Positions 8,274-52,898 of a DNA stretch of 64,000 nucleotides are shown one piece after another (the first letter of the stretch is position 1; every line of letters begins with the position of its first letter). The stretch is from a virus. The stretch covers positions 1-64,000 of the IMG/VR virus record IMGVR_UViG_3300033121_002167; one strand, written 5' to 3'. Made by a program: the position numbers and the translations under genes. The notes beneath the pieces are model-generated. The model made no database searches. It was not told the DNA's origin and worked only from the letters and a program-made list of their open reading frames with translations.

Positions 8274-8285
8274 TGAGGTGTCGCT

Positions 8286-11032: not shown

Positions 11033-11038
11033 ACCGTC

Positions 11039-16031: not shown

Positions 16032-16039
16032 AGGAACCA

Positions 16040-16240: not shown

Positions 16241-16242
16241 AG

Positions 16243-18100: not shown

Positions 18101-18149
18101 TGCGTTGCAGTTATCCACAGCCTAATTCAGTGAGTAAAATGAAAGCATC

Positions 18150-35594: not shown

Positions 35595-35598
35595 AGCT

Positions 35599-36803: not shown

Positions 36804-37126
36804 CGCCTGTGCGGTCTCCTATTTCTGTCAACGTTGCCATCCAGCGCATCGTTCAAAATTTGGGACGCAATCGACCACAAATCTTCTTCTGAACGAACCC
36901 TTCTGTTGAACTGCGCGTTCTGAACTTTAGCTCCAACATCGTCTAGGCCAATGCGCTGGAGCTCTTCACCGAGCCAGTTAGCAGTCGTTATCACTTCTTT
37001 AGTTCTGACATCACATGACCAGTTCGCTGGTCTTCCAGCGCTGTGCCCAGCGAATAGTCTTTCAATGTTGCGCTGAACGTTCTCTCTGACCATGTCAGGA
37101 GAATAGCGCGGTGCTACTTTTTCCAT
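36794..37126 (-). CDS. hypothetical small protein
   Basis: ORF only. Confidence 0.35.
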   Translation of the reverse strand: MEKVAPRYSPDMVRENVQRNIERLFAGHSAGRPANWSCDVRTKEVITTANWLGEELQRIGLDDVGAKVQNAQFNRRVRSEEDLWSIASQILNDALDGNVDRNRRPHRRWG

Positions 37127-37129
37127 CTT

Positions 37130-37945
37130 CTACTTCTGTCTTTTTGGACACCAGTAAGTTGTTCGACCATCAGCGGTCGAGTCTTTTTCTACTGGAAATC
37201 CATGAGGATCAGTGACTTGATTGTACACTGAAAATCTGTCTGATATCCATGATGTGCCATCCGGACCCACTGAGTAAGCCCCGCCGAGCTCGTACGACAG
37301 GTTCATCATCATTATGATAGCTGATCGTAGGTCAGCAAAGTCTTCGTGGGTTAGCGACGAAACTGGGCGATGCGGTGATATCTTCGCAGCATACAAAGAT
37401 TCACACTTCAAGTAATTACCGACGCCAGAGACGCAGCTTTGGTCCATCAGAGCTTCAGCGATCGTTCGATTGCTCTTGAACATCATGCGCTCGATGAATT
37501 CTTCATCATCTGGTGGTGAGTTAAGCATGTCCGGACCTATTGACTTCAGCTTTGAAGCTAGCACTTCGGCAGAAGACGTGAAGCTCAACGTCCCGAATCG
37601 ACGCTGGTCAATGAACGTCGTTGTCAACTCATCAGACATGATTGACATGACAGCGTGCCCAGCCGTGGGCCGCGTCGTCCACTTTCCCGTCATCCCGTAG
37701 GTACACATCATGTACCAATCGGGCTCAAGATATTTCTTGAACGTCCACCATGAGAACTTTCCCTTTACGCGAGCTGCTTCCATCATGTAGCCATCACGAA
37801 CAGCAGAAGCGAAATTTTGGTAACCAGCGGGCTCTTTCGAAGAGTAACGACCAGTGTTGTGCAGCTGAACGGCACGAATGATCTCACCGCTGAACAGGTT
37901 GTTGATCTCTTCGACGCTCAACGTGACTTCAACGCCCTCGGGCAT
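37130..37945 (-). CDS. Fpg/Nei-family DNA glycosylase (zincless-finger type)
   Basis: starts MPEGVEV (Pro2/Glu3 catalytic), H2TH region, C-terminal 'GRTTYWCPKRQK' aligns to Fpg 'RATFYCRQCQK' but lacks the 4 Cys. Confidence 0.7.
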   Translation of the reverse strand: MPEGVEVTLSVEEINNLFSGEIIRAVQLHNTGRYSSKEPAGYQNFASAVRDGYMMEAARVKGKFSWWTFKKYLEPDWYMMCTYGMTGKWTTRPTAGHAVMSIMSDELTTTFIDQRRFGTLSFTSSAEVLASKLKSIGPDMLNSPPDDEEFIERMMFKSNRTIAEALMDQSCVSGVGNYLKCESLYAAKISPHRPVSSLTHEDFADLRSAIIMMMNLSYELGGAYSVGPDGTSWISDRFSVYNQVTDPHGFPVEKDSTADGRTTYWCPKRQK

Positions 37946-38275
37946 TCATCCCTCCAGTGCAGCGGCTCCAGCAGCTGCGGCATTGTAGAACCTGACATCG
38001 ACATTGTCTGATGCCTTGAAGAGAAACCACTGGTTGAGCGTCTCGTCCCAAGCGTGGATCGTTCCATCTTCATCGATCTTGTGGATCTCGCAAGATGAAG
38101 TGTGAGGACGAGCATGGCGCAACCGAGTCACCAAGATCTTGCTACCAACTGGTGCTAGCAGCACGCCGTCGGCGATCGCAGGCACTGTCTTTGGATCGAT
38201 CTTCACTCTCTTCTTTCGTAGAGCCTTCGGCGCTTTCTCTTTAACGCGCTCAGCGATCTTCTTTGCATTGCTCAT
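37946..38275 (-). CDS. hypothetical small basic protein
   Basis: ORF only. Confidence 0.35.
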   Translation of the reverse strand: MSNAKKIAERVKEKAPKALRKKRVKIDPKTVPAIADGVLLAPVGSKILVTRLRHARPHTSSCEIHKIDEDGTIHAWDETLNQWFLFKASDNVDVRFYNAAAAGAAALEG

Positions 38276-38696
38276 GTTTCTTTATCCAGTCGTAGTATAT
38301 GCCCAATGCACCGTCTGACGGGCGGTAGCTACCCACATCACATTGGAAGAACATCTTCCATGATCTCCAACCGTACTCGCCGATACCGGGCAGCTCCCGG
38401 GCATCTGACCAAGATTTGCTCACGTAAGCCTTTGTCATTGACCTGATCGTGGCTTCGCGACGATTCTTGAATCCAAGGGACCGGATCAAGTCAGCGACTT
38501 CAGCTGGAGAGCTCTCCAAGTACTTCTCAGGTGTTGACCAACGAGACATGAATTCAGGTAGGATCTTTTCCACCTGCGTTCTCTTCGTCCGGTTCAGCAT
38601 GATGCAGCTGACGAGGACGAGCCATTCATTGGGCCATAGAGATTCTTGTATGAGACTGTGAGGACTTGCTAGCGGTATCATACCACTTGCCAACAT
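38250..38696 (-). CDS. HhH-GPD DNA glycosylase, MBD4-like
   Basis: 'LVSCIMLNRT' ~ MBD4 'LIATIFLNRT'; 'LPGIGEYGWRSWKMF' ~ 'LHGIGKYGNDSYRIF'. Confidence 0.7.
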   Translation of the reverse strand: MLASGMIPLASPHSLIQESLWPNEWLVLVSCIMLNRTKRTQVEKILPEFMSRWSTPEKYLESSPAEVADLIRSLGFKNRREATIRSMTKAYVSKSWSDARELPGIGEYGWRSWKMFFQCDVGSYRPSDGALGIYYDWIKKHEQCKEDR

Positions 38697-38720
38697 TGTA
38701 ATTCGTCTAGCTGGGCAAGT

Positions 38721-39395
38721 TCATCTGCCGTACTTCTTGTCAAAGTACGTGTTACCAAGTTGGTACAGAACATTTTCTAGCGATGATTGCTTCACGTCGT
38801 GCTTTGCCAGCTGCTGAGCAACTTCACCATGCCTCTGGATCAAGCTTGATTTTGCCGCGCTTTGTCCTGGCCCGTCGTAAGAGTAGTTCAATACCTTGTT
38901 TGGATCTTTCACAAGCTCGCAGTCATCGCATTCTTCTGGTGTCTTTGGATCATCACGATCATCAAACGGTTTCTTGTCAACATCACTGCGCTTCGAAGAG
39001 TAATATTGCCACAACTTCTCGGCAGAAGAATTTGTCGATACCCTATCTGGCATCAAGCCACCGTCGCCATCGCTCATGACAATATCGTACATGAGCGGAC
39101 CGTAGCCTTTCGAAGCAGCAGATCGATGAACTTCGATAGCGTCATTGCACTCGTCAGAGTGTGGGATGGCTTCGATGAAACCGTAGATAAATTCATCGAG
39201 AGGTTTGGAGAATCGCATGCTCCAGAAACCCGGTTCTTGCATGACAGACGCTAGAGTCTTGGGCTCGTAAAGAACGTAGTAAATCTTACCTTCTCGCTGT
39301 CCCCTATAAAGAGCTAGCCCAGCATCTATAGCTTGATCTCCGCCCACTGCTGCTTCAATGAGGTGTGATATGTACGACTTCAAGTGTTGCTTCAT
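38721..39395 (-). CDS. hypothetical protein
   Basis: 224-aa ORF. Confidence 0.4.
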   Translation of the reverse strand: MKQHLKSYISHLIEAAVGGDQAIDAGLALYRGQREGKIYYVLYEPKTLASVMQEPGFWSMRFSKPLDEFIYGFIEAIPHSDECNDAIEVHRSAASKGYGPLMYDIVMSDGDGGLMPDRVSTNSSAEKLWQYYSSKRSDVDKKPFDDRDDPKTPEECDDCELVKDPNKVLNYSYDGPGQSAAKSSLIQRHGEVAQQLAKHDVKQSSLENVLYQLGNTYFDKKYGR

Positions 39396-39703
39396 AGGAT
39401 TCCCACCCTCTTGAACAGCTTTCGATTGTAGTCGCTGAAAGATCCTTGCAGGAGAACAGCGGGTTCAACCCACTTCACCACACCAGATTCATCAGTGTCA
39501 ACGTTACCCATGACTGAGCAAGAGTAAGTCGTCACGAAGTAACCAGCATCATCTTTCTGCGAGAACACTTTTGTTAGATTGACAGCAGTGTAACCGGTCT
39601 CTTCTTCGAGCTCTCTTGCAGCGGCTTCAACCTCAACCTCACCAGGATCCACTTTCCCGTGGGAAATTGTTGCAACTATATTCTTCTTGATCAAGCTTAC
39701 CAC
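39392..39703 (-). CDS. Nudix hydrolase fragment (C-terminal two-thirds, retains Nudix box)
   Basis: 'GKVDPGEVEVEAAARELEEETGY'; paralogous to 40467..41039 but lacks N-terminal ~85 aa; 5' end abuts GIY-YIG gene. Confidence 0.45.
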   Translation of the reverse strand: MVSLIKKNIVATISHGKVDPGEVEVEAAARELEEETGYTAVNLTKVFSQKDDAGYFVTTYSCSVMGNVDTDESGVVKWVEPAVLLQGSFSDYNRKLFKRVGIL

Positions 39704-39715
39704 CTATATAATTTC

Positions 39716-40543
39716 ATGTTTGTGTACAAAATAACTTGCATCATAAGTAACCGAATTTACGTTGGAAAAACAATTCATAGCATAGAGTCTAGATTCAATC
39801 GTCACATAAAACAATCAAAAAATCCTAGTACAAAATTTCATCATGAAATTGCAAAATTTGGAAAAGAAAATTTCGAAATTGTTCTACTACAAGAATGCAA
39901 TTCAGTTAAAGAGCTCAATCAGGCAGAAAGAGATTGGATTGAAAAACTAAACAGTACTGATCCTATCGTTGGTCTTAATTCAACATGCGGTGGTCAGTGT
40001 GGTTTGATGACATGTGAAACAAAAATCAAAATATCAAACGCACTAAAAAATAGAAAACTTTCGAACGAACATCGATCAAAGATATCTGCAATAATGAAAA
40101 CCAAGCACGGTGCATTGAACAATTTTTACGGACGTCATCATGACGATAACACTAAAAAATCAATTTCAAATTCAATGAAAGGTGAGCGCGGTCCGTGCTA
40201 TGGAAGAACGGGCTCAAAACATCCGATGTTTGGAAAAACACATAGCGATGAATCAAAAAAGAAAATGTCAGACATTAAGTCTGGTAAGAAACTTACAGAC
40301 AAGCACTACAAAGCCGTTAAAGCCTGGCATGCGAAAAGAAAAGAAATAATCTCAACCCGTGATGATCAGATTTTTGATCTTATTTTCAACAAAGGCTTTT
40401 CGAAGAAGAACGCGGCAGAGGCTCTAGGCGTGGGTATCAATCTCATTTACGGAGCAATGCATCGATTCAAAGTATCGAAATCTTCTGAAAGAGAAGTTGA
40501 TTGTAACGATAAAATGGAGATTGATTCGGATCGATCAAACTAG
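39716..40543 (+). CDS. GIY-YIG homing endonuclease (I-TevI-like, NUMOD3 repeats + C-terminal HTH)
   Basis: 'FVYKITCIISNRIYVGKT...RFNRH'; repeats 'HRSKISAIMK','TKKSISNSMKG','SKKKMSDIKSG'; AT-rich island (track ORF 39659..40543). Confidence 0.75.
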   Translation: MFVYKITCIISNRIYVGKTIHSIESRFNRHIKQSKNPSTKFHHEIAKFGKENFEIVLLQECNSVKELNQAERDWIEKLNSTDPIVGLNSTCGGQCGLMTCETKIKISNALKNRKLSNEHRSKISAIMKTKHGALNNFYGRHHDDNTKKSISNSMKGERGPCYGRTGSKHPMFGKTHSDESKKKMSDIKSGKKLTDKHYKAVKAWHAKRKEIISTRDDQIFDLIFNKGFSKKNAAEALGVGINLIYGAMHRFKVSKSSEREVDCNDKMEIDSDRSN

Positions 40544-41039
40544 AAGGATTTACCCACCTGATTACGCCACTTTCATTTGTATGAATTGTACCGGATACGT
40601 TTCCGGAAAACGTTGTTGTCATAAATCCATGAGAATCTCTCATTGAAAATATTTCAACTAGATCAGTTACATCAAGTCCAGTTTCTTCTTTCAACTCTCT
40701 TCTAGCAGCGTCAATATCTTTTTCACCAACATCAACATGTCCACCAGGCATACCAAGCGCATTTGGATCATCTTTCCTAGAGACTGCCAAGATCTTTCCG
40801 TTTGGGTTCCTAACAAGAACGCATGCAGCTCGCGGGGCATTCAAAGCTGCGAGCGTCTCGTCTTCTTCGTCATTTGCCAACGAACCACCCACTTCGACGT
40901 TTGTTATCGGCGGTCGAGGATCTGTCAACATCTCACGGATGAGCTGCTTCAGAAGCTTAACTTCTTTGGTTCTGGAAGTGGACATGATTCGATCTGATCG
41001 CAGCTCGTTATGTTCTTGACGCAAGACGGAGCGAGCCAA
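40467..41039 (-). CDS. Nudix hydrolase
   Basis: Nudix box 'GGHVDVGEKDIDAARRELKEETGL'; N-terminal 'KLLKQLIREML' propeptide-like motif. Confidence 0.7.
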   Translation of the reverse strand: MARSVLRQEHNELRSDRIMSTSRTKEVKLLKQLIREMLTDPRPPITNVEVGGSLANDEEDETLAALNAPRAACVLVRNPNGKILAVSRKDDPNALGMPGGHVDVGEKDIDAARRELKEETGLDVTDLVEIFSMRDSHGFMTTTFSGNVSGTIHTNESGVIRWVNPSSLIDPNQSPFYRYNQLLFQKISIL

Positions 41040-41330: not shown

Positions 41331-41678
41331 TCAAATTTCTCTCAAGTACCCAAACTTAGCATTGAAGAGCCCAACAAGCGCTGAATCTGTTTCCTTGAAA
41401 TCATTGTTGTGCTTGCGGAATAGCTTCGCGTACTTTGAAGATGCATAATCGATGATCTCACGTCTGATATTATCAGGCAGAGGTTCATCATTGATCTCTT
41501 CTGTCTTTCTGATCCAGAAAACGGCAGCAGTGCGACCATTTGATGCTAGCGACGGCGCCATGTGCCTCTTTAGCCGGGCGATGAACTTTGTGTCAAGCTT
41601 GAGCTCAGCAATGATAGTTGAGACGTACTCTTTCAGCAGCTGTTGATCGCTCATGTACCCTCCAAAAACGGTACCCAA
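41331..41678 (-). CDS. hypothetical protein
   Basis: ORF only. Confidence 0.35.
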   Translation of the reverse strand: MGTVFGGYMSDQQLLKEYVSTIIAELKLDTKFIARLKRHMAPSLASNGRTAAVFWIRKTEEINDEPLPDNIRREIIDYASSKYAKLFRKHNNDFKETDSALVGLFNAKFGYLREI

Positions 41679-43633
41679 AAGCTGTTTGCAGAGCTTTCGT
41701 CTAGGTACTTAAACGGCACCCAAGCGTAACCATCATCTCCCCACCAAGTTCCCCAAGAGTTGCGAACCAACCACAGCTCTCTTCCAAGATCGTAGCCTAC
41801 GATCACTTGGCAGTGACCTCCAGCGCCGGCCCTAACGGACTTTGGCATCGCAACGGGTGGACCGCCGCGGTACGCCATGTAATCTTTATCGACAGTCATG
41901 CCAAAGACGATCGGATGGCTTGCTTGCAGCGCAGAGATGATGTAGTTTTTCTGCGCTTGACCAGATCCACCGATAGAATAGTAGCTGTCGATTTTGTTGA
42001 CGTAAGCGTCTCTGTAAGAACCCCAAGACGGTCGAATGAAGACCTTGCTGGTGTCATAAGGCCACTTTTCTTCTGCACAAGTTCCCAATGATGACAGCGT
42101 TCCGAACGCCATGTGAATGTAAGCACCCTCATCGCGATCTTGCATTCGTGACATCAAACGAGCATTGTAGTAGACGAACATCCTAGACAAGTCTACGAAA
42201 GGTTTGCCGTTGCGGATCTGAAGAAACTCGAGAGCCCCAACGACACCGTTGCCGACGCAGTTATGAACAAAAACACCGCTAGCTAGAGCGAAATTATGCT
42301 GTTCATTATCAACCGTTAGACAGTACACATCTATTTTTTCATCTAGATGTTCAATGCTGACTATTTTGTGATTGTAATTTTCAGCAGCTTCTTTCAGCTC
42401 ATTCAGAGAACTGAAGTATTTTTCTATTGACTTGAATGTCGAAAAATTTGGAATCCCAGATGATCTTTTAGTTTTTTCCCACGCCTCTTGCGTGAGCTCA
42501 CTATTCTCTGTGATGACACGATTAGCATACTTGATCAATTTCAATCTTCCAGATTCAGAACCAATTGATCGCATTGATTCTCGTACAACTGACATAAATC
42601 GATCATCACTTTTTATTCTCTTGCTTATCTGTTTTCCAATCAGTTTCTTTTGTTCTTGCGTTCTATTTGAAAGCGTTTCTTTCAACGACAAACGTGCCTT
42701 TGCTCTTGATTCAGAGCTATGACCTTTCATGAAAAACTGTTGACGCCAACTTTCCATCTTGTTTTCATCATTCATTCGATTGATGTGCGCTTGTGTACCT
42801 CCTTTACCCTGGGCACCAGCATTCCATAGTGGATTATCTGCGTACTGTTTTAGTATCGTTCTACGCGAATCTTCGCTTTGTTTTTTCGAACCATGATACC
42901 AAGTTCCACCATGAGGCGTTTGTTGTGAATGATACAAAAAGTGCTCTTGTATACCCATGAACTTTAGATTCTCAGGATCATTGTTCTTCTTGTTGAAATC
43001 AATGTGATGAACACACTTAACATTTTCATCAATATGCTGCAACTGTTCTGAATGAACGTTGTACGCAACCATGTTGTGAGTTTTTACGTATGATGACTTA
43101 AAGTTGTCAAAAATCATCTGATACCCGTTCTTATCGTATTTTACATACAAAGGCATCAATGACATTGATGAAGTCAATGATTTAGCTTCACAATAAGTTC
43201 CATCTCTTAGAAGCCAACGATGATCTGGTGTGCAAATCACCACATCGCCAGAATCTAGTGTGACTTTAATGACCTCTTTTTTCAAACCAGTCAATTTTGC
43301 CGTTGCTTTGCCAGGTACGATTTTTCCTTCTGGTGTGCAAGAATAAATCCAAAATGGTTTGTTTGATTCGTGAAGTTCTTTCAATGATCGTTTTTCACCA
43401 TTGAGCAAACGAATAAGTGTATCACCAGAAAAGCAGCTTCCGATCTGACCTTGATCCTCCACGGGGGAGCACCACTGGCGCAGATCTAGGACGCCGTCGA
43501 CCTCTTGCGGAGCGCTAGCTGGTGATGCAGCTGCGAACTTAGAGATATTATCCGCAAAGACGTAGTTCTTGCTTGCGTCATGATCTGGATCTTCGTGGTC
43601 GGCTTTCCAGCCGCCTAGCTTTGGTACGTACAT
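41651..43633 (-). CDS. papain-like (C1) cysteine peptidase interrupted by an intein
   Basis: exteins: 'QGQIGS|CVGNGVVGALEF' (papain 'QGSCGSCWAF..AVVTIEG'), 'GGHCQVIVGYD' (His), 'NSWGTWWGDDGY' (Asn-Ser-Trp). Confidence 0.75.
   Translation of the reverse strand: MYVPKLGGWKADHEDPDHDASKNYVFADNISKFAAASPASAPQEVDGVLDLRQWCSPVEDQGQIGSCFSGDTLIRLLNGEKRSLKELHESNKPFWIYSCTPEGKIVPGKATAKLTGLKKEVIKVTLDSGDVVICTPDHRWLLRDGTYCEAKSLTSSMSLMPLYVKYDKNGYQMIFDNFKSSYVKTHNMVAYNVHSEQLQHIDENVKCVHHIDFNKKNNDPENLKFMGIQEHFLYHSQQTPHGGTWYHGSKKQSEDSRRTILKQYADNPLWNAGAQGKGGTQAHINRMNDENKMESWRQQFFMKGHSSESRAKARLSLKETLSNRTQEQKKLIGKQISKRIKSDDRFMSVVRESMRSIGSESGRLKLIKYANRVITENSELTQEAWEKTKRSSGIPNFSTFKSIEKYFSSLNELKEAAENYNHKIVSIEHLDEKIDVYCLTVDNEQHNFALASGVFVHNCVGNGVVGALEFLQIRNGKPFVDLSRMFVYYNARLMSRMQDRDEGAYIHMAFGTLSSLGTCAEEKWPYDTSKVFIRPSWGSYRDAYVNKIDSYYSIGGSGQAQKNYIISALQASHPIVFGMTVDKDYMAYRGGPPVAMPKSVRAGAGGHCQVIVGYDLGRELWLVRNSWGTWWGDDGYAWVPFKYLDESSANSFWVPFLEGT
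42260..43435 (-). mobile_element. intein (Hint domain with HNH homing-endonuclease insert), 392 aa
   Basis: block A 'CFSGDTLIRL', block B 'TPDHRW', HNH 'VHHIDFNKKNNDPENL', block F 'VYCLTVDNEQHNFALASG', block G 'VFVHN|C'; AT-rich vs host gene. Confidence 0.7.
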
Positions 43634-44984: not shown

Positions 44985-46178
44985 TCAGAATTCGCCGCGA
45001 GTTCCGTGCTTCGCGTAGTAATCAGCTTCGCGCCGAGCAGAAGACTTCTTGTGCTTCGACCAAGACTTGATCTCTTCTGGCGTTGGCTTCACTGCGTCTG
45101 CAAACATGTAGTCAGCGCGTTGAGCTCGGCCGTCAGTTGTCCGGCACGTGACGTAGCTACCACCAGTCGACGGCGTATCTTCAAACGAAGCGATCTGAAC
45201 GACAGCACCGCCTGGCAACTTCACCCAGTCACCGACGTTCCAGCCATCAAATGATGTCATTCCCTCGGTGAGAATCGTTCTGATCATCGACTTGAGCTCG
45301 CGAAGCTTGATCTTCATAGCGAGTAAGTATTCACCCCAAAGGTGATCAAACGTCGCAGTGAACTTTCCCCAAGCTTCATCTTTCAGAAGCGACTTAAAGC
45401 CGTACTTCTCGAACGTAGAGCGGACAGGTGCCCAATCTTTGGTCGGCTGCGAAGACGTCATACCGTGCGCCTCTTCGTCAGACCACGTGGTGAACTTGAT
45501 GAGCGAATAATTCTTTCGAAAGGCTTCTTTGTTAGCAGGATCGTTGAAGAACTCCTTCAACGCATCCGGGTCGTCCATCAGCGCCGTGGCAGCACCATCC
45601 GTGATAATCTTTGGGATGTTGTCAGTCGGATCGCCACGAAGAGCCTTCCATGTAACGTAATCAGCGGGAGCTTGCTCAACGTACGTCTTCTTCATCGGGT
45701 TATAGATGCTGACGCCCTCAAATTCATCTAGGAGCTGCGTGAAGTCAGAATCGTTCGATACAACTGTCCACTTCACGGCTCGAGTGCCACGCTTGATGAG
45801 GTTGTAGATCGTGTCATCGCACTCGTGGTGAGGATGACGCACGACAGAGAACGGAAAAGAACCTGCCAACAACCCGACTATCTCGTCGACCTGGCTGAAG
45901 AACTTCACCATCTCATCGTGCTCTTTGGTGCCGGCTTCTACGATGCGGTTCGCCTTGTATTGCGGCAAGATATCGTGACGAGCTTGCGGATGGCCTTCAA
46001 GCACGAAATACAAGCGACTGATATCAAGTTTTTCTACTAGTGCTCGTATGTTACGAAAAAAATTAAAAACTACAGGAGCTGGACCAGCTGTCCAGCCAGT
46101 TCTAGACCGGTGCAAAAAATTCATCCCATCTACTAGACAAATATGAGGACGCATAATTCTATTGTTACGTGCTTCCAT
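44985..46178 (-). CDS. 5'-3' exonuclease / flap endonuclease (T4 RNase H / Pol I 5'-exo family)
   Basis: 'ICLVDGMNFLHRS' (cf. Pol I 'LIDGSSLAFRAF'), 'LEGHPQARHDILPQYKANR'; N-terminal ~50 codons unusually AT-rich. Confidence 0.75.
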   Translation of the reverse strand: MEARNNRIMRPHICLVDGMNFLHRSRTGWTAGPAPVVFNFFRNIRALVEKLDISRLYFVLEGHPQARHDILPQYKANRIVEAGTKEHDEMVKFFSQVDEIVGLLAGSFPFSVVRHPHHECDDTIYNLIKRGTRAVKWTVVSNDSDFTQLLDEFEGVSIYNPMKKTYVEQAPADYVTWKALRGDPTDNIPKIITDGAATALMDDPDALKEFFNDPANKEAFRKNYSLIKFTTWSDEEAHGMTSSQPTKDWAPVRSTFEKYGFKSLLKDEAWGKFTATFDHLWGEYLLAMKIKLRELKSMIRTILTEGMTSFDGWNVGDWVKLPGGAVVQIASFEDTPSTGGSYVTCRTTDGRAQRADYMFADAVKPTPEEIKSWSKHKKSSARREADYYAKHGTRGEF

Positions 46179-46816
46179 TGCTTGTTAAGCTTAATCCGAT
46201 TTACTTGAGAACGACTAATATTGAACAGTTTCACAATGTCACAAACTCTAGTTCCAATTGACAATTGATACTTGATTCCCTTAACATCATCTTCAGTCAA
46301 TGAACAATTTGGATTTTTCACTCCAATCCGTAGTTTAGCATGCTCACTAATTTTTTTACGTGCTTGATCAGTAAGATGTGTTCCGAAATTTGGATTTCTA
46401 GCGCCACGCAAACCTTCCCAACCAAGTCTTGCACGAGAAATTGCCTGGCGATGTTCTAGTGACTTAGGTTTTCCGCGGTGTTTATCACTCATTTTCTGAC
46501 GAGTTTCTATCGAAACAACGCAACCCGTAGATCCTTCTCCTCCACGCGTCAGATTATAACCTCTATCGATGTTAAACGAATCATAATGTGATATCCAATA
46601 AATTTCACGATCATCACACTCATGATCATCACACTCTTCTAGAATTCGAAACTCGAAATTTTCATGACCATATTTTCGGATGGAACAGTAAAGAGGTCGA
46701 AGATCACCTTTCTTGGCAGAATACAAATGTCCTGCTTTTCTATTGGAAAAATTTTTCGTTTGCCCAACATATACTTTCCCGTTGATTAGATTCTGAATCA
46801 GATAAACATATCTCAT
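46133..46816 (-). CDS. GIY-YIG homing endonuclease (Seg-like) with C-terminal HTH
   Basis: 'VYLIQNLINGKVYVGQT...NRKAGH'; AT-rich. Confidence 0.75.
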   Translation of the reverse strand: MRYVYLIQNLINGKVYVGQTKNFSNRKAGHLYSAKKGDLRPLYCSIRKYGHENFEFRILEECDDHECDDREIYWISHYDSFNIDRGYNLTRGGEGSTGCVVSIETRQKMSDKHRGKPKSLEHRQAISRARLGWEGLRGARNPNFGTHLTDQARKKISEHAKLRIGVKNPNCSLTEDDVKGIKYQLSIGTRVCDIVKLFNISRSQVNRIKLNKQWKHVTIELCVLIFV

Positions 46817-47005
46817 TCAATTAAGTATATCGAACCGTGTTGGAGGGGCAAAGAATAGCGTCTCCACGAGAGACCTGATGTTCCTCATGAAGTTGAAGAC
46901 GACGGGCGCAGGACCGCCTGTCCATCCACTTCGGGCTCGATGCAGAAAATTCATGCCGTCGCACAGAACCACGTGAGGTTGTAGCATCTTCTTAGATTGT
47001 ACCAT
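46817..47005 (-). pseudogene. displaced N-terminal fragment (62 aa) of the 5'-3' exonuclease gene
   Basis: 'LCDGMNFLHRARSGWTGGPAPVVFNFMRNIRSLVE' ~ residues 13-50 of 44985..46178 protein but with GC-rich codons. Confidence 0.55.
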
Positions 47006-48014
47006 GACGTAACGTTTCGTTGCACTTCTTCAAGTACCATGCACGCGCAGCAGCTTGCAGCTGACCACGAACGTCGTGCCACTCCAACCCGCTGGCTTCA
47101 AGCTCAGCTTGTGCTTCCTTGAAGACGTCCTTGCACACCCAAGCCAAGAACGGTCCCGTGAGTCGCGGATGATATTCACCACCGAGCGTGGCGACACCTT
47201 GCTCTAGGCGAGCTTCAGACAGAACGAGAGCGACAAACTCAGCTGCAGATGCGGCAACTTCCGGATCAACTTGCGCTGGTTTTCCGTGCGTCAAGATCTT
47301 GTGAGCTTCACCCTTTGCCTTGAAAGCCAAGTTCGTGAACGTCTTCACCGTCGTTGGCAGTGGGTAGTAAACGAGACCTTCACCGACGCCCTCAACTTGG
47401 AACGTGGACTTCACCCAAGGATCGCATCTCTCAACTTCAGCAACGTCGCTGTTTATCTTGTCAACGATGGGTTGCAGATCTTCGACGCGGTGCAGCATGT
47501 TAACGTTGAACGACTTCGAGTGCCAAGGAAGCACGTACGCATCATGGACACCCGCGACCAGCGGCTCGAGCTCGTCAGGTTCAACGATCAGCTTCGACTC
47601 TTCGTTGTCAAATGCGTCTAGGACCGCAGCGGCAAAGACAGCAAAGAACTTCTTGCTGACTTGCGTCAATGCTGTTCCCTTGTTGATGCCAGGTCCGCAC
47701 CATTCACCGAAGATCACTTTGTCGACTGCCACGCCTGTGTCTAGAAACGATTGCGATTCTCTGTGAGCCCATGCTGCCAACCCAGCAAAATCGTTGCCAG
47801 GAGCGATGAACTGCTCGCGGGTCTGGACTGTGATGCCCTTTCGCCTGACTTGGATCCCTGCATTGGCACCATGAAGCTTCACCTTGGGCCTGAAGGTGAC
47901 GTTACCGTCACCCACGATGTGGGGGTAGTTCCTGATGTTCTTCCGAAGCGTGTGGAAGTTGACTATCTCTGGCCATCTGATGAACGACATCTGCTTTGAA
48001 TCCTTCCTGTGCAT
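46992..48014 (-). CDS. RNA ligase, Rnl2 family
   Basis: motif I 'KLHGANAG' (T4 Rnl2 'KIHGTNFS'); 'IFGEWCGPGINK' (T4 Rnl2 'VFGEFAGPGIQK'); 340 aa. Confidence 0.8.
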   Translation of the reverse strand: MHRKDSKQMSFIRWPEIVNFHTLRKNIRNYPHIVGDGNVTFRPKVKLHGANAGIQVRRKGITVQTREQFIAPGNDFAGLAAWAHRESQSFLDTGVAVDKVIFGEWCGPGINKGTALTQVSKKFFAVFAAAVLDAFDNEESKLIVEPDELEPLVAGVHDAYVLPWHSKSFNVNMLHRVEDLQPIVDKINSDVAEVERCDPWVKSTFQVEGVGEGLVYYPLPTTVKTFTNLAFKAKGEAHKILTHGKPAQVDPEVAASAAEFVALVLSEARLEQGVATLGGEYHPRLTGPFLAWVCKDVFKEAQAELEASGLEWHDVRGQLQAAARAWYLKKCNETLRHGTI

Positions 48015-49180
48015 GGAACGACGAGCCAGCAGTACACGCTGTCCCAGTCAATGTTAGCCCACGTTTTACTGATAAATGATACCACAGTACTAACCATTTG
48101 TTTATCTCGAATTAATTCGTGGGCTTCTCGTGATAACTCCGAGCGGTCTAAAGCGACCGACGGAGGATTCCCGTCCACACCGCACGAGAAGCTGACGATC
48201 TTGGTCTCAGTGGGATCGACCGCGACTTGCAACCAATACTTTGACACGTCGATGGCGTGGATGCCCGGCGGCGTGGGAACATTATCTCTGACCTTAAATG
48301 ACCACGTTCGAACTGCAGAACCATCAGCACGGCGCTTGAACTGCACCTTGCTAACGCAGTAGTAGCTAAGAAGATGGTACGCGATGACTCGAGCTGCATC
48401 TTCACGGAGATCTTTGTCATCAAGCGCAGAACGTTGCAACCTGAGATTATAGTTGCGGTGCTGCAAGTCCCACTTCACGTACTCTTCCACAGATTTGATC
48501 GTGGTCTTCAGGTACGCAGGAAAGTTACCTTGCGTATAGCGCAACTTTGCTTCACGCTCAGCACGCTGCAGGCGAGATTCACTCTCGGCACGCTTGATTG
48601 GAATTGCAAATGAATTGAACGTATCAAGCAGGTGCTTGATCTCACCCTGCGCAGTTGCTGTCAACCATTTCGGGTAATTGCGCTTGTCTTCCCGATCGTA
48701 CAGGTGCAAAGCGCCATCGATGGTTGCTGTGATATCCTTAAGCGTCAGCTTCTTGGGTGCCTTCGCTGCCTTCACCGCGGCTTCTTTGCCTGCGGTGAAG
48801 TTGTCTGGGAGCTCGTACTCAATGTTGTTGACGTCTTCGAGCTTTGCCCAGAAGCGAACTTTCGACTTTTCGCCGACAACTTTGAACGTGATCGAATCGT
48901 AGTTGTCAGATCCTTCCTTGGCCTTGTTCGCAGTTCGAACGTAAACTCGATCGATCTCCAACTTCGTGCCTTTCGGCAGCATCACAGACTCGTGCTTGTA
49001 ATCGAGCGGCCAGCCCTTTCCGGATTTGGAACGATTGTGCCAGTTGCTTTTCACATCCTCGTAGACTTTGGGTGCCAAGAGCTTCAGGCACGTGTCGTTC
49101 CTGTCTTCGAGGTAGAGCGAGAAGCTCCAGTCAGCAGCGAGGACGATCTGGTAACCAACTGCAGGTACGAAAAATTTCAC
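47963..49180 (-). CDS. hypothetical protein (operon with Rnl2)
   Basis: 405-aa ORF, overlaps neighbours. Confidence 0.4.
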   Translation of the reverse strand: MKFFVPAVGYQIVLAADWSFSLYLEDRNDTCLKLLAPKVYEDVKSNWHNRSKSGKGWPLDYKHESVMLPKGTKLEIDRVYVRTANKAKEGSDNYDSITFKVVGEKSKVRFWAKLEDVNNIEYELPDNFTAGKEAAVKAAKAPKKLTLKDITATIDGALHLYDREDKRNYPKWLTATAQGEIKHLLDTFNSFAIPIKRAESESRLQRAEREAKLRYTQGNFPAYLKTTIKSVEEYVKWDLQHRNYNLRLQRSALDDKDLREDAARVIAYHLLSYYCVSKVQFKRRADGSAVRTWSFKVRDNVPTPPGIHAIDVSKYWLQVAVDPTETKIVSFSCGVDGNPPSVALDRSELSREAHELIRDKQMVSTVVSFISKTWANIDWDSVYCWLVVPCTGRIQSRCRSSDGQR

Positions 49181-49950
49181 TTGGATGACTCCGTGGGCAA
49201 GTAAGGTTCTACAGAAAGAATTTCACCGTTGAGAGATCGAACTATGAAGCCGCCAGAATCAGAACGACTGTAGAAGCCAACTTTCCTGACAACAGAACCA
49301 TCTGGCTCTTTCTTGGTTGACAGCACGTTCCACATGTTTTTTTCATACATCAGATTGTTAAAGTAACGCTTGTTGTACATCAACGGGCGTGCACGGCCAG
49401 CGTACAAGTAGTTCTCAGCGTTTTGAGCGACTGCGTCCAGATGTTCCATTCTAGCACCGGGCACAGAATTGTTGACCATCGATACGATAACTTCGCGAAT
49501 GGCTCTGATGTGATCTTCAGCGGCCTTGCGCTTCTCTTTCTTCTCCTTGTAACTGGGATCAACTGCAGCGCGAGCCGATGACCGAAGAGATGCAGCGTAG
49601 TTTCCGCCTCGTAGCTGATTCTTTGCAACGAGATCCAAGTTGACAGAACCGATAGTCTGGAAGCTCACTGCAAACCGCAGGCCAACGTACTCGTGGCGCT
49701 CGCAGCTCGTGATGATGATCGTCACGTCGTTTGTGTTGAATTCATCACCGATGTCATCGATGGTGAACGTAGTTCCGGCTGGAAGCGTCACAGTTGCCTC
49801 GCCTGGCTGATTATAGAGCTTCAGCAGCTTAAGAGCAACTGTGCTCTTTGAATCTTTCTTGATCGTGGCAGACCATGACATCTGCTCGACGCTGAACGAA
49901 TCTCCGAGATCAGGGATGTAAATCTTCATAAGTCCTCTACGATGACCCAA
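49177..49950 (-). CDS. hypothetical protein (operon with Rnl2)
   Basis: 257-aa ORF, ATGA coupling. Confidence 0.4.
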   Translation of the reverse strand: MGHRRGLMKIYIPDLGDSFSVEQMSWSATIKKDSKSTVALKLLKLYNQPGEATVTLPAGTTFTIDDIGDEFNTNDVTIIITSCERHEYVGLRFAVSFQTIGSVNLDLVAKNQLRGGNYAASLRSSARAAVDPSYKEKKEKRKAAEDHIRAIREVIVSMVNNSVPGARMEHLDAVAQNAENYLYAGRARPLMYNKRYFNNLMYEKNMWNVLSTKKEPDGSVVRKVGFYSRSDSGGFIVRSLNGEILSVEPYLPTESSK

Positions 49951-50594
49951 CCGATAACGTGACTGTCATCAGGCGTGGTGACGACCTCGAGCCTGTAGTT
50001 GTCACCAAATAGATTCGAGTCGAAGAGCCTGTAGATGCACTTCTCTGCCTCAGATCGCCCCGAATACCGAGCGCACAACTCTCGATCGTGATCGCCCATG
50101 AAATCTTCCATGAAACCACCCATGACGTTGCCGTTCATCTCATAGATAAAATCTGGGTGATCTGCACCGAGGCGCCGCTTCTCAGTGCGTTGCCAGCTCT
50201 TCGGATTGCACCACAGATCCCATATCTTCTGGCGAGCCTCCTCGGCCGTCAGACCGGGCTTCAATCCAAACCTAGCAACCGATCGGTCGATGAACTCTTG
50301 AAGCGTCAGCTTGCTGAACCAGTAGTTTGGCTTCCCATGATTCTTGTGATAATGATCAACATCAACGAGGTGATCAAAGCGTCCACGAGCGCTAGGATCG
50401 TTCAACCAACCCTTCATCATCTCCTTGATGCGTTCTGTCGACAACTTCTTACCTTCCACTGCGCCATCGTTAAGAGCCACGTTACAGCCTCCTTTGCAGC
50501 CTTCAATGCCTTTGCGTGATCTTCCTCGATCGATTTCTGCAGGCGCTTTCGTTCCATAACTGCGCTTCTGTTGTTGTGACCGTAGCAGTTCCAC
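49926..50594 (-). CDS. hypothetical protein (operon with Rnl2)
   Basis: 222-aa ORF. Confidence 0.4.
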   Translation of the reverse strand: MELLRSQQQKRSYGTKAPAEIDRGRSRKGIEGCKGGCNVALNDGAVEGKKLSTERIKEMMKGWLNDPSARGRFDHLVDVDHYHKNHGKPNYWFSKLTLQEFIDRSVARFGLKPGLTAEEARQKIWDLWCNPKSWQRTEKRRLGADHPDFIYEMNGNVMGGFMEDFMGDHDRELCARYSGRSEAEKCIYRLFDSNLFGDNYRLEVVTTPDDSHVIGWVIVEDL

Positions 50595-51565
50595 ACAGCG
50601 TTGAACTGTGTCCTAAGGCTGTCGTCAAGGTAAAAATTGCGCAGTTCATCTTGGTTTCCGGTCACGTACGGCCGTGAATCGTTGGCGTTCATGAACATCG
50701 ATGCAGGAAAGTCCTTCAAAACTTCTCCAGCAGACACGAACTTCGGGCTGCTCAAGAAGATGACGGGCTTGTAGAATCGATCATCGTCTCTGTCGGGTCG
50801 ATCGTAACGCGTGTATCGATCCAGCTCCACGTAATCGTAGCGAGCCTTCCATGACATGGATTCCCACGCATCGGCAATATCGTTGTTCTTCTTGACGAAA
50901 GAAGGAACACCGCCGTTATTAGCAGCCACCTCGGGATCGTAACGATCGGGTGGCGCCGGAAGCTCGACGAAAGCATGAAGAGTTCCCTTCAGGTGCGGGA
51001 ATTTTGCACGGCCCAAGAAGACGAGCTTCGTTCCATCGCGCTTCTGGCACACCGTGCCTGGGGCCATCGTCTTCAAAGTCAAAGGATTCCAAGACGCTGC
51101 CGCAGAGGCATCGATCGAACCCTGAACCATCTCTGCGTACGAATCGCCGCCGACGAGAGTCAGGCGCAACGTTGACCCATCAACGCCCCACACGAACTGC
51201 CCGCCGAGCTTCCCGCCCCGGGCGATGCCCTCGCGCTTGATGCACTCCAGAAGCTGATCCTCACGGAGATCGTGCTGGCGATTGAACTGATCGATGACTT
51301 TGTACGCTCGACCACCTTCGCTGCGAACCTCAAGGTTCGTGATCTTCAGCACAAGACCGCTGTTAAGCTCTGTGATGGGTTCAAACACGCCTTTGTTCCG
51401 ACCGTACCAGTTTGTCTCGACCCAGCGCTTTGCGGTCGCAGGGGAAGTCTTCGACTCCGGGTTGAAGGTGAACGTCGGACGAACTTCGATATCGTTCCCA
51501 GAGAGGTCTTTCACCTTCTCTGAATTTCGACATGCGAAAGAAACCTTTTCAAGAAGCCTTGCCAT
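50417..51565 (-). CDS. hypothetical protein (first gene of Rnl2 operon)
   Basis: 382-aa ORF. Confidence 0.4.
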   Translation of the reverse strand: MARLLEKVSFACRNSEKVKDLSGNDIEVRPTFTFNPESKTSPATAKRWVETNWYGRNKGVFEPITELNSGLVLKITNLEVRSEGGRAYKVIDQFNRQHDLREDQLLECIKREGIARGGKLGGQFVWGVDGSTLRLTLVGGDSYAEMVQGSIDASAAASWNPLTLKTMAPGTVCQKRDGTKLVFLGRAKFPHLKGTLHAFVELPAPPDRYDPEVAANNGGVPSFVKKNNDIADAWESMSWKARYDYVELDRYTRYDRPDRDDDRFYKPVIFLSSPKFVSAGEVLKDFPASMFMNANDSRPYVTGNQDELRNFYLDDSLRTQFNAVWNCYGHNNRSAVMERKRLQKSIEEDHAKALKAAKEAVTWLLTMAQWKVRSCRQNASRR

Positions 51566-51833
51566 GTATCTTACTGTACCTCAAGAGCAATAAGGGTTGC
51601 ACAACCGTGTATCGTGATGGATTATTCATCCACTTTTCGTACGTTTCATTGTGAAGTCGTCACGAATTATCGTCGACTGTCGAACTTCACACGACCATCT
51701 TTGAAGAATCCTACGTAATGAACGTAGCAATTGCTACCCAATCTATACACGGCAGTGCACAAGAGGACGCCACGCCAAGATATAGAATCAGAGATCACTA
51801 GCGTTCCTGGCACAATCTTCGGTTCAACATTAC

Positions 51834-52046
51834 TCATATGAACCCGCAGAACTCGTGATCGTAATCTTCTACGTACAGCTTTGTCTTCTTTGCGATGAAA
51901 GTCTTAGTGAGCTCTGACGTTGCTACGTTCATCCATATGACGCACTTATCATGAGCATCATGATCGTACAACGCCAGCAGCATGAACGAGAACGATTGAA
52001 ACTTTGACAGCAAAATCATGCCAGGAACGATAGGCGTTTTCTTCAT
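51834..52046 (-). CDS. small paralogous protein (tandem trio)
   Basis: 'IVPGMILLSK'. Confidence 0.3.
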   Translation of the reverse strand: MKKTPIVPGMILLSKFQSFSFMLLALYDHDAHDKCVIWMNVATSELTKTFIAKKTKLYVEDYDHEFCGFI

Positions 52047-52255
52047 GGTTCAATGAGCATGTAAAGTTCACGCATCGCCGTGCGTTTCAGACTGTCGACA
52101 TGTATTCGTGCGCTGATGATCTCGCTGTTTGTTATGTTAAACCACACTACGTTATAGATGCAGTCTTCCACGACATTGTAGCTTACAAGCAACCACCACG
52201 TGGTCATATCGTTCTTGTTAAGCAACAACGTTCCCGGCGTGATCATAGATTTCAT
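52043..52255 (-). CDS. small paralogous protein (tandem trio)
   Basis: 'ITPGTLLLNK'. Confidence 0.3.
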   Translation of the reverse strand: MKSMITPGTLLLNKNDMTTWWLLVSYNVVEDCIYNVVWFNITNSEIISARIHVDSLKRTAMRELYMLIEP

Positions 52256-52463
52256 AGAGCACCTTCATGTACGCTATTGACACAAGATCGATAGGTTGCG
52301 GCAGCCCAACGAACAACTCTTGCCCCGCGCTCAACCAACAGATCGTGTACTTCTGAACGCCATCGACCACGTGAACGCGGGTTGATATGACAACCCACGT
52401 TTCAAGTAGATCATCTGTCTTGGGTATGAACAGCATCCCTGGTGTTGGAAATTCACTCTCCAT
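52218..52463 (-). CDS. small paralogous protein (tandem trio)
   Basis: 'PTPGMLFIPK'. Confidence 0.3.
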   Translation of the reverse strand: MESEFPTPGMLFIPKTDDLLETWVVISTRVHVVDGVQKYTICWLSAGQELFVGLPQPIDLVSIAYMKVLYEIYDHAGNVVA

Positions 52464-52646
52464 GAAGAGACACGACGTAATCGATCGCCCAGCGCTGAGG
52501 TTTGAACAAGAACGTTGCGTACTCTTGAGGAGTCATTCCCAGGTGCGTCATCAAGTCGTTTGGGCAACCTGCGATGAACCAATCGGCGATCTCATCATCG
52601 ATTCCTTCGAGGATGACTTTGGCTCGCGATTCCAGGCTCGTGTCGT

Positions 52647-52898
52647 TCATTTGAGAGGGCACTCCAACTTTTTGGCAGTTGCATGAAGATCATCGATCGA
52701 CATAGACGACTGAATCTCTCTGTTGAACCTCCACTGTCGATTTGCCATCAACGAGTACCTGCCAGTGTAATCAGCGCGGGTGATGAAGCAATAGTCTGTT
52801 CGACCGTCAGCTTTGATGACGAAGACGCTGCATGCGATCAACCCGGCCACGATAACAACGATGAAAAGAGTCGTAAGAGTGGCGAAAATATCATCCAT
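52647..52898 (-). CDS. small membrane protein
   Basis: N-terminal TM 'LFIVVIVAGLIACSVFVI'. Confidence 0.3.
   Translation of the reverse strand: MDDIFATLTTLFIVVIVAGLIACSVFVIKADGRTDYCFITRADYTGRYSLMANRQWRFNREIQSSMSIDDLHATAKKLECPLK

What the first reader, a model, noticed from the sequence alone, without database searches (positions are those of the whole stretch)
46992..51565. Rnl2 RNA ligase heads a five-gene overlapping operon of unknowns; candidate RNA-repair / novel system
Five minus-strand genes overlap by 4-50 nt each, so they are likely co-translated:
- 50417..51565, 382 aa;
- 49926..50594, 222 aa;
- 49177..49950, 257 aa;
- 47963..49180, 405 aa;
- 46992..48014, Rnl2.
Only Rnl2 is recognisable. 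T4 Rnl2's biological partners remain unclear. This tight cluster may encode end-healing or sealing partners, or an anti-defence RNA-repair pathway, for example against anticodon nucleases.
Basis: inference. Interest (0 to 1): 0.55.

Follow-up and report, generated by a model that had tools for sequence, protein, structure and literature searches.

The report
RNA ligase beside unrelated phage genes
A phage RNA-sealing enzyme lies at the end of a tightly packed row of four genes of unknown function, but related phages keep those neighbours without the ligase and the two modelled ones show no repair-enzyme fold, so this looks like ordinary dense gene packing rather than a new RNA-repair system.

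Summary
The five minus-strand genes are real. All are under purifying selection (dN/dS 0.06-0.34), and they overlap start-to-stop once the starts are corrected. The last one, not the first, is a genuine Rnl2-like RNA ligase: PF09414 at 2e-12, T4 Rnl2 structure 2hvq at 5.6e-6, motifs I, III, IV and V intact.

The proposed RNA-repair partnership is not supported.
2. B and C have no family hits. They share only one domain each with D (hhalign scores above 200 of 200 shuffles).
3. In seven more distant phage contigs, A lies a few genes upstream of the flap endonuclease (FEN) gene, and in four of them D follows A. None has an RNA ligase in the fetched stretch. Rnl2 occurs there only in the window's own lineage, wedged between D and FEN and overlapping FEN by 14 nt.
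4. Four-base overlaps are the genome's norm (37 of 103 close junctions).
5. Related ligases in other phages do sit near recognisable phosphoesterases, and no A, B or D homologue was detected in the four such phage loci searched.

A, B and D are conserved, uncharacterised phage families, and C is an orphan. The finding is ordinary, and interest is low to moderate.

The parts
50417..51565 (-). Gene A, 382 aa. Member of a conserved uncharacterised phage family built of SH3-like barrels plus helices. Invariant motif R81-SEGGRAYKV-90 ... D99-x-RED103.
49926..50459 (-). Gene B, about 172-177 aa (start GTG 50459 or TTG 50444; ATG 50420 is less likely). Member of an uncharacterised family of about 160 aa with the motif C..R.F.P...DN[FY]RLEVVTTPDD..V[VI]GW..VD.
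   Evidence: 106 cluster representatives at E<=1e-3. Alignment A3. No hit in Pfam, PHROGs, NCBIfam, PADLOC or PDB. A homologue lies directly after D in L005. The C-terminus resembles the C-terminal domain of D: hhalign 32.7 against 13.6+-2.8 for shuffles, 0 of 200 reaching it.
49177..49929 (-). Gene C, 250 aa. Lineage-restricted orphan whose N-terminal ~60 residues resemble the SH3-like N-domain of D.
   Evidence: Only 4 homologues, all 92-98% identical. No phage tblastn hit. dN/dS 0.16-0.30. hhalign against the D family 37.6 versus 15.1+-2.9 for shuffles, 0 of 200 reaching it. Not significant with HMMER.
47963..49180 (-). Gene D, 405 aa. SH3-like (FeoA-like) N-domain (1-125), a long helical middle, and a small beta C-domain. 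The last ~65 aa are a poorly conserved, low-confidence tail.
46992..47990 (-). Gene E, Rnl2-like ATP-dependent RNA ligase, 332 aa (the ORF extends to 48014).
   Evidence: PF09414 2.1e-12, 47.9 bits against a cut-off of 27. phrog_548 1e-37, full length. T4 Rnl2 2hvq 5.6e-6, aligned over residues 33-299 with KxHGxN, FGE, EG and KxK conserved. 149 phage records hit by tblastn, best about 33% identity in Ruegeria phages.
46817..47005 (-). Truncated 5' fragment (62 codons) of the FEN gene, overlapping Rnl2 by 14 nt. It is a remnant left by a homing-endonuclease insertion.
   Evidence: 96.6% identical to the 5' end of the intact FEN in L009. In L009 and L011 an intact FEN follows Rnl2 with the same 14-nt overlap.
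46133..46816 (-). GIY-YIG/NUMOD3 homing endonuclease inserted into the FEN gene.
   Evidence: PF01541 5.6e-11 and PF07460 7e-8. phrog_314 1.5e-43. Absent from L009 and L011, 100% identical in L004.
44985..46178 (-). Full-length flap endonuclease / 5'-3' exonuclease (FEN), the conserved downstream landmark of the neighbourhood.
   Evidence: PF02739 9e-17. A FEN gene lies 1-7 genes downstream of A in all seven distant relatives.
51621..51649 (-). Weak sigma-70-like promoter match in the 101-nt gap upstream of A. It is a possible start of the transcription unit.
   Evidence: 9 of 12 consensus match. The number of such sites in the region is no higher than in shuffles, so this is only a hint.

Best explanation
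The region is a stretch of a long, densely packed minus-strand transcription unit in the replication and repair part of a large uncultured phage.

Its fifth gene is a bona fide Rnl2-like RNA ligase. By analogy with T4 Rnl2, it is adenylylated on the motif-I lysine (K in KLHGAN), transfers AMP to a 5'-phosphate, and seals 3'-OH/5'-PO4 nicks in duplex or stem-loop RNA such as broken tRNA.

The four genes upstream are not its end-healing partners.
- A and D are non-enzymatic-looking proteins made of SH3-like beta-barrels and helices. They most likely bind a protein or nucleic acid.
- B and C are domain-level relatives of D.
- A is a backbone gene of this phage clade, always a few genes upstream of FEN.
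- D follows A in one subclade, B is sporadic, and C is an orphan.

Rnl2 is an accessory gene that entered the variable slot between D and FEN only in this lineage. The juxtaposition therefore reflects gene packing. The ligase acts alone, on breaks that already carry 3'-OH/5'-P ends, or with healing enzymes encoded elsewhere.

Shown: gene reality, ligase identity and motifs, folds of A and D, the synteny pattern, and the overlap statistics. Inferred: the ligase substrate, a binding role for A-D, and functional independence.

Synteny:
- L005-L008 carry A-D overlapping, then small genes, then FEN, with no RNA ligase.
- L015-L017 carry A, then 1-3 genes, then FEN, with no ligase and no D.
- Only L004, L009 and L011 (87-98% identical) carry A-B-C-D-Rnl2-FEN.

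Rnl2 overlaps FEN by 14 nt in L009 and L011, whereas L009 has a 120-nt gap between D and Rnl2.

37 of 103 close junctions are 4-nt overlaps.

Related ligases sit next to recognisable phosphoesterases: a metallophosphoesterase in DSS3_PM1 and phosphatases in VF16 and KE23. No A, B or D homologue was detected in the four such loci searched (RpAliso, VF16, KE23, DSS3_PM1).

No kinase or phosphoesterase domain was found in any window ORF of at least 150 aa.
Against: The five-gene order and overlaps are conserved in all three close relatives, and the genes are very likely co-transcribed. Small SH3, Tudor and KOW barrels are common RNA-binding modules, so an RNA-targeting accessory role for A or D remains possible.

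Only about +-7-8 kb of each distant relative was inspected, so those phages might carry Rnl2 elsewhere. Two of them carry Thg1 (a tRNA 5'-end repair polymerase) 1-3 genes upstream of A, which gives the neighbourhood a faint tRNA-repair flavour.
Confidence: 0.6

Rival explanations
1. The five genes form one functional RNA-repair or anti-defence module, in which A-D recognise or heal broken tRNA ends (or block an anticodon nuclease) and Rnl2 seals them.
For: The genes overlap tightly and are probably co-transcribed, and this arrangement is conserved in L004, L009 and L011. A and D contain SH3/Tudor/KOW-like barrels that could bind RNA. Thg1 lies near A in L005 and L007. The natural partners of T4 Rnl2 are unknown (my own knowledge).
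Against: A and D show no kinase, phosphatase or NTase fold or motif. B and C have no family hits. A-D, or A alone, is kept at the same locus without any ligase in seven distant relatives. No A, B or D homologue was detected next to the related ligases in the four other phage loci searched, three of which carry recognisable phosphoesterases nearby instead. The overlaps are the genomic norm.
Confidence: 0.1
2. Rnl2 is functionally tied to its downstream neighbour FEN and to the phage's DNA-repair set (mini PolX, Fpg, UvdE, HhH-GPD) rather than to A-D. It would seal nicks whose 3' side ends in ribonucleotides, for example after a PolX-type polymerase inserts rNMPs. This is analogous to the 3'-ribonucleotide preference of bacterial LigD.
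For: The 14-nt Rnl2/FEN overlap is conserved in L009 and L011. A 185-aa PolX-like NTase lies 5 kb upstream (PF14791 4e-5; PDB 3b0x 2.7e-6). Fpg, UvdE and FEN were identified in the same strand block of the window, and an HhH-GPD gene is annotated at the matching position in the close relatives L009 and L011. From my own recollection of published biochemistry, T4 Rnl2 needs ribonucleotides only at the 3'-OH side of a nick.
Against: This is purely positional. Rnl2-less relatives keep FEN and the repair genes. rNMP use by this PolX has not been tested. Overlaps are ubiquitous in this genome.
Confidence: 0.1
3. A-D (with B and C) form their own fast-diversifying module of binding proteins used for host takeover or counter-defence and have nothing to do with RNA sealing. 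The shared domains reflect duplication and shuffling under an arms race.
For: B and C share domains with D. L005 and L006 carry extra stand-alone D-N-domain genes. The D N-domain occurs as a stand-alone protein of about 150 aa in Pseudomonas, Rhizobium, Agrobacterium and Xanthomonas phages. C is an orphan. The genome holds other arrays of small paralogous genes.
Against: dN/dS values are clearly purifying, not diversifying. A is a stable backbone gene next to FEN, which fits a housekeeping replication or repair accessory role better. No known anti-defence family matched.
Confidence: 0.2

Closest known systems
Bacteriophage T4 RNA ligase 2 (gp24.1; PDB 2hvq/1s68) and the PF09414 / phrog_548 phage ligases (e.g. 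Ruegeria phages RpAliso and DSS3P8, Vibrio phage VF16)
   Same: Same overall length and two-domain layout. Motif I KxHGxN, motif III FGE, motif IV EG and motif V KxK are all aligned, and the alignment runs through the C-terminal domain to T4 residue 299. The match to phrog_548 is full length.
   Different: Only about 30-34% identical to the nearest isolates. It is far below the TIGR02307 Rnl2 equivalog cut-off, 13.8 against 197 bits. T4 E34 and D120 align to V and A (read from the alignment). Activity and substrate are untested.
T4 Pnkp + Rnl1 tRNA-repair pathway against the PrrC anticodon nuclease, and the RNA-repair gene sets of jumbo phages (ligase + PNK/HAD, 2H, cRec or RlaP; PMC7824862)
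   Same: A phage-encoded ATP-dependent RNA ligase that could reseal broken tRNA.
   Different: No kinase, phosphatase, 2H, metallophosphoesterase or RlaP (PF10127) partner was found in the cluster or in any window ORF of at least 150 aa. The nearby Pol-beta-type NTase is PolX-like, not RlaP.
Listeria phage P100 gp62 / phrog_12487 and phrog_2475 (uncharacterised Herelleviridae proteins of about 395 aa)
   Same: The N-terminal ~185 residues of A are homologous (36% identity). They are the best structural matches in BFVD.
   Different: The C-terminal halves differ. In List-36 the gene overlaps a PRPP-synthetase/NAMPT pair rather than lying near FEN. No function is known for either.
phrog_22676: stand-alone proteins of about 150 aa in Pseudomonas phage nickie, Rhizobium phages, Agrobacterium phage Atu_ph07 and Xanthomonas phage XaC1
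   Same: Homologous to the SH3-like N-domain of D, residues 1-125.
   Different: D adds a helical middle and a beta C-domain. All members are annotated as hypothetical proteins.

Membership tests
Rnl2-type RNA ligase (covalent nucleotidyltransferase superfamily, PF09414) | Motif I KxHGxN carrying the lysine that is adenylylated | tested here: met
   KLHGAN aligns with T4 KIHGTN.
Rnl2-type RNA ligase (covalent nucleotidyltransferase superfamily, PF09414) | Nucleotidyltransferase motifs III (FGE), IV (EG) and V (KxK) | tested here: met
   FGEW/FGEF, EGLVY/EGYVL and AFKAKG/AIKCKN align in the phmmer alignment to 2hvq.
Rnl2-type RNA ligase (covalent nucleotidyltransferase superfamily, PF09414) | Score above the curated family thresholds | tested here: inconclusive
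   Pfam PF09414 scores 47.9 bits against a cut-off of 27, which is met. The NCBIfam TIGR02307 Rnl2 equivalog scores 13.8 against 197 bits, which is not met. It is therefore a member of the broad family and a divergent subfamily (phrog_548).
Rnl2-type RNA ligase (covalent nucleotidyltransferase superfamily, PF09414) | Rnl2-specific C-terminal domain needed for nick sealing | tested here: inconclusive
   The alignment to T4 Rnl2 extends to residue 299 of 334, but with low per-residue confidence. phrog_548 is matched over positions 1-340 of 341. No structure model was made.
Rnl2-type RNA ligase (covalent nucleotidyltransferase superfamily, PF09414) | ATP-dependent sealing of 3'-OH/5'-PO4 nicks in duplex RNA | not testable with these tools
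   This needs biochemistry.
Phage tRNA/RNA-repair system (ligase plus end-healing enzymes, T4 Pnkp-Rnl type) | A 5'-kinase and/or 2',3'-cyclic or 3'-phosphoesterase encoded with the ligase | tested here: not met
   A and D have SH3-like barrels only. B and C have no hit in Pfam, NCBIfam, PHROGs or PADLOC, and B none in a PDB profile search. For B and C this is sequence-level evidence only.
Phage tRNA/RNA-repair system (ligase plus end-healing enzymes, T4 Pnkp-Rnl type) | Conserved co-occurrence of the ligase with the putative partner genes across relatives | tested here: not met
   Seven distant relatives keep A (four of them also D) without a ligase in the fetched stretch. Four other phage loci with related ligases (RpAliso, VF16, KE23, DSS3_PM1) show no A, B or D homologue.
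RlaP (RNA-ligase-associated Pol-beta NTase, PF10127) | A PF10127 nucleotidyltransferase near the ligase | tested here: not met
   The only Pol-beta-type NTase nearby (52909-53466) matches the PolX thumb and palm. It does not match PF10127, which is how RlaP is defined in PMC12776372.

The most novel reading that the evidence does not exclude
A, D and their domain relatives B and C would be a previously undescribed, clade-wide module of SH3-like-barrel proteins. A carries an invariant charged motif (RSEGGRAYKV ... DxRED). The module would act on nucleic acid together with FEN, and in this lineage it would have recruited an Rnl2-like ligase, for example in a repair pathway for RNA-containing nicks or broken tRNA that uses non-canonical, non-enzymatic end-recognition factors.
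Probability: 0.1. Interest if true: 0.6.

Novelty: new member of a known kind. Interest (0 to 1): 0.22.

Why it matters
If the five genes were a true RNA-repair system, they would finally give Rnl2-type ligases a set of biological partners. The evidence points the other way: the ligase is a lineage-specific add-on, and the neighbours are independent conserved unknowns.

What remains of value is modest.
- There is a divergent Rnl2-like ligase subfamily.
- There are three well-defined uncharacterised phage protein families (A, B, D), each now with an alignment, and A and D with structure models.
- There is a clean example showing that overlapping start and stop codons in a densely packed phage genome are not evidence of a functional module.

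Tried and rejected
- DNA similarity of 46.0-52.0 kb to 50,697 phage records found no match.
- tblastn of B and C against phages found no match.
- PDB sequence searches with A and D as single proteins and with the A, B and D profiles found nothing meaningful.
- Pfam scans of all 55 B-family members and of longer B-domain-containing proteins (P0120 and others) found no informative domain or fusion.
- PADLOC gave nothing for any of the five genes.
- HMMER profiles of the D domains against all window ORFs did not detect C or B significantly. Only hhalign with a shuffle control did. The paralogy is therefore domain-level and weak.
- hhalign of A against D and A against B showed no relation.
- XaC1_164 (385 aa, the same size as A and near a D-N-domain gene and NAMPT) is not detected by the A profile.
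- The weak Pfam ADP-ribosyltransferase hit of C (E 0.06, below cut-off) and the NCBIfam ssDNA-binding hit (E 0.016, 15 against 75 bits) were treated as noise.
- The AFDB50 Foldseek library was unavailable.
- The one B-family context obtained was a 1.7-kb contig next to an R2K ATP-grasp gene, which is too little to interpret.
- RlaP identity of the 185-aa NTase was rejected.


Full report
**Observation**

The window carries five consecutive minus-strand ORFs at the coordinates given. Comparison with three close relatives (L004, L009, L011; 87-98% protein identity) gives dN/dS of 0.06-0.34 for all five, including the orphan C, so they are real genes.

Reading the junctions and using family alignments corrects three starts.
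- C begins at ATG 49929, an ATGA overlap with B.
- D begins at GTG 49180, a GTGA overlap with C.
- Rnl2 begins at ATG 47990. The PHROG profile starts at residue 9, and relatives call a 332-aa gene.
- B begins at GTG 50459 or TTG 50444, because the conserved family N-terminus 'KLST..IK..WL' is encoded upstream of ATG 50420.

On the minus strand the order of transcription is A (51565) > B > C > D > Rnl2 (46992). Rnl2 therefore ends the row rather than heading it.

The row does not stop there. A 62-codon FEN fragment overlaps Rnl2 by 14 nt, followed by a GIY-YIG homing endonuclease and a full-length FEN gene.

Overlaps are not distinctive here. Of 103 same-strand junctions closer than 300 nt in the window, 37 are 4-nt overlaps. 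Promoter-like and terminator-like sites are at shuffle level. The only notable gap is 101 nt upstream of A, which holds a weak promoter match.

**The ligase**

Gene E matches Pfam RNA_ligase PF09414 (2.1e-12, above threshold) and phrog_548 'RNA ligase' over its full length (1e-37). It also matches the solved T4 Rnl2 structure 2hvq (5.6e-6) over T4 residues 33-299. Motif I (KLHGAN against KIHGTN), motif III (FGE), motif IV (EG) and motif V (KxK) are aligned.

It misses the strict NCBIfam Rnl2 equivalog threshold by far, 13.8 against 197 bits. Its nearest isolates are only about 30-34% identical, in Ruegeria, Rhodobacter and Vibrio phages. It is a divergent member of the Rnl2-like family.

**The four unknowns**

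None of A-D has a significant Pfam, NCBIfam or PADLOC hit.

- **A.** The N-terminal half matches two function-unknown PHROGs and hypothetical proteins of Listeria P100-like and Bacillus phages. The family has 58 members in the large database, none with a Pfam domain. It has an invariant motif R81..GGRAYKV90..D99xRED103 and no conserved Cys or His.
- **D.** It has 21 homologues of about 330 aa. Its first 125 residues equal phrog_22676, which is a stand-alone protein in several phage groups. Its last ~65 residues are lineage-specific, of low confidence, and frameshifted in L009.
- **B.** It belongs to a family of about 160 aa with 106 cluster representatives and a striking C-terminal motif, DN[FY]RLEVVTTPDD..VVGW..VD.
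- **C.** It has only near-identical relatives.

AlphaFold models were confident for A (pLDDT 88) and acceptable for D (pLDDT 77).

No kinase, phosphatase, nucleotidyltransferase or ligase fold appeared. Foldseek of A against viral models returned only uncharacterised phage proteins: P100 gp62, W.Ph. gp153, and proteins of Atu_ph07, phiPsa300 and fHe-Yen9-04.

Profile-profile comparison suggests that the N-terminus of C is related to the N-domain of D, and the C-terminus of B to the C-domain of D. Both scores exceeded all 200 shuffles: 37.6 against 15.1+-2.9, and 32.7 against 13.6+-2.8. HMMER does not see either relation, so this is a weak, domain-level link. A is unrelated to B and D.

**Comparative genomics**

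This is the decisive evidence. The contigs encoding D homologues and A homologues come from related large phages.

- In L005-L008, A and D are adjacent and overlapping (34-36% identity to the window's proteins). Small unannotated genes follow, then FEN, lysozyme and a papain-like peptidase, in the same backbone order as the window. There is no RNA ligase.
- In L005 a B homologue sits directly after D, and extra stand-alone D-N-domain genes occur in L005 and L006.
- In L015-L017, A is followed within 1-3 genes by FEN. There is no detectable D or B and no ligase.
- Only the window's own lineage (L004, L009, L011) has A-B-C-D-Rnl2-FEN. There Rnl2 overlaps FEN by 14 nt, while L009 has a 120-nt gap between D and Rnl2.

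Thus A is a backbone gene linked to FEN and D is subclade-specific. B is sporadic and movable, C is an orphan, and Rnl2 is a lineage-specific occupant of the variable slot between D and FEN.

Phages with related ligases tell the converse story. The ligase lies next to a metallophosphoesterase in DSS3_PM1, near phosphatases in VF16 and KE23, and near a PNK in RpAliso. No A, B or D homologue was detected in these four loci.

In the window itself, no kinase or phosphoesterase domain was found in any ORF of at least 150 aa. The nearby 185-aa Pol-beta-type enzyme is a mini PolX. It is not the RNA-ligase-associated RlaP family PF10127 (PMC12776372; PMC7824862).

**Interpretation**

The best-supported reading (confidence about 0.6) has two parts.
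- The ligase is an independent accessory gene. It seals 3'-OH/5'-P RNA nicks through the usual lysyl-AMP mechanism (inferred from the conserved motifs). It acts alone or with healing enzymes encoded outside this cluster.
- A-D are conserved, probably non-catalytic binding proteins of the phage's replication and repair region.

B and C remain unmodelled, barrels of this type often bind RNA, and Thg1 lies near A in two relatives.

Two further readings are listed as rivals. One links Rnl2 to FEN, PolX and the base-excision genes, sealing 3'-ribo nicks (about 0.1). The other treats A-D as a host-takeover or counter-defence family (about 0.2). Neither could be tested here.

**Comparison with the known, and novelty**

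Gene E works like T4 Rnl2. It passes the motif and Pfam tests for the broad family but not the strict equivalog model. The cluster fails both defining tests of a T4-type RNA-repair system: it has no healing enzyme and no conserved co-occurrence.

The A N-terminus and the D N-domain already exist as function-unknown PHROGs. The finding is therefore a new, divergent member of a known ligase family sitting beside uncharacterised but previously catalogued phage families. Interest is 0.22.

**Caveats**

- Only +-7-8 kb of the distant relatives was inspected.
- The AFDB library was unavailable.
- All functional statements about A-D are inference.

Noticed in passing
window 44985-47005 (-): The FEN gene has been hit by a homing endonuclease. 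A 62-codon FEN 5' fragment is 96.6% identical to the L009 allele. It is followed by a GIY-YIG/NUMOD3 endonuclease gene, then a full-length FEN whose 5' part is 97.4% identical to the different L011 allele and which has a new N-terminus. L009 and L011 have an intact FEN and no endonuclease, and L004 has the identical insertion. This is a mosaic typical of homing-driven recombination between co-infecting relatives.
   Followed up: yes
window 19824-22511 (+): An 895-aa homologue of the eukaryotic major vault protein (MVP_shoulder 2e-30, Vault repeats; rat and human MVP structures at 2e-20 over residues 478-816). Phage MVPs were first reported in a 2023 preprint (10.1101/2023.11.10.566534), so this is rare but not new.
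   Followed up: partly
window 41651-43633 (-): The papain-like peptidase (C1/C39_2) gene is 660 aa because it carries an intein with an HNH endonuclease (PF14890 4e-18). Homologues in relatives are 268-282 aa without it.
   Followed up: no
window 52909-53466 (-): A 185-aa minimal family-X DNA polymerase-like protein (PolX thumb 4e-5; T. thermophilus PolX palm 2.7e-6). It is comparable in size to the 174-aa ASFV Pol X (from memory) and is not the RlaP family.
   Followed up: partly
window 30571-40543 and 57472-57963: An unusually rich repair and stress gene set for a phage. It comprises Fpg glycosylase (37130-37945), UvdE UV endonuclease (32542-33474), ADP-ribosylglycohydrolase (35599-36513), an AAA ATPase (33702-35594), a GroEL-type chaperonin (30571-32196) and two NUDIX hydrolases (40467-41039, 57472-57963).
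   Followed up: no
window 4600-19800 (+) and 51667-52898 (-): About 60 tandem small ORFs (70-100 aa), mostly with 4-nt overlaps, fill 15 kb. At least 10 of them form one BLAST-linked paralogue family with the pattern GDL...C.G...P.G (probably small beta-barrels). Six similar small genes lie just upstream of gene A.
   Followed up: partly
window 27800-28309 (-): A 169-aa ORF with a translation initiation factor IF-1/eIF-1A domain (PF01176 1.3e-18), which is an unusual phage gene.
   Followed up: no
window 57987-58832 (-), 39659-40543 (+), 62945-63925 (-): Further mobile-element genes: two more GIY-YIG homing endonucleases and a ROS/MucR + NUMOD3 protein. Together with the intein and the endonuclease in FEN, the window holds at least five selfish elements.
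   Followed up: no
L005 5076-5897; L007 4946-5659 and 5853-6392: Distant relatives carry a Thg1-like 3'-5' polymerase (tRNA 5'-end repair) 1-3 genes upstream of their gene A homologue, and in L007 also an AAA_28 P-loop protein. No Thg1 domain was detected in the window proteins that were scanned.
   Followed up: no
L001 5001-8903 (Listeria phage List-36); L014 559-5327 (Xanthomonas phage XaC1); L018 313-5999 (Vibrio phage VF16): NAD-salvage genes recur near these families. The A-like gene of List-36 overlaps a PRPP-synthetase/NAMPT pair. The D-N-domain gene of XaC1 lies 3 kb from NAMPT. The Rnl2-like gene of VF16 lies 1.7 kb from a PRPP-synthetase, phosphatase and NAMPT cluster.
   Followed up: no
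L011 297-1542; L009 3988-5201: In close relatives gene A (L011) and the tail of gene D (L009) are split by frameshifts. These are either assembly errors or decay of those genes or segments.
   Followed up: no
window 1478-1561 (+): A single tRNA-Leu(UAA) gene.
   Followed up: no
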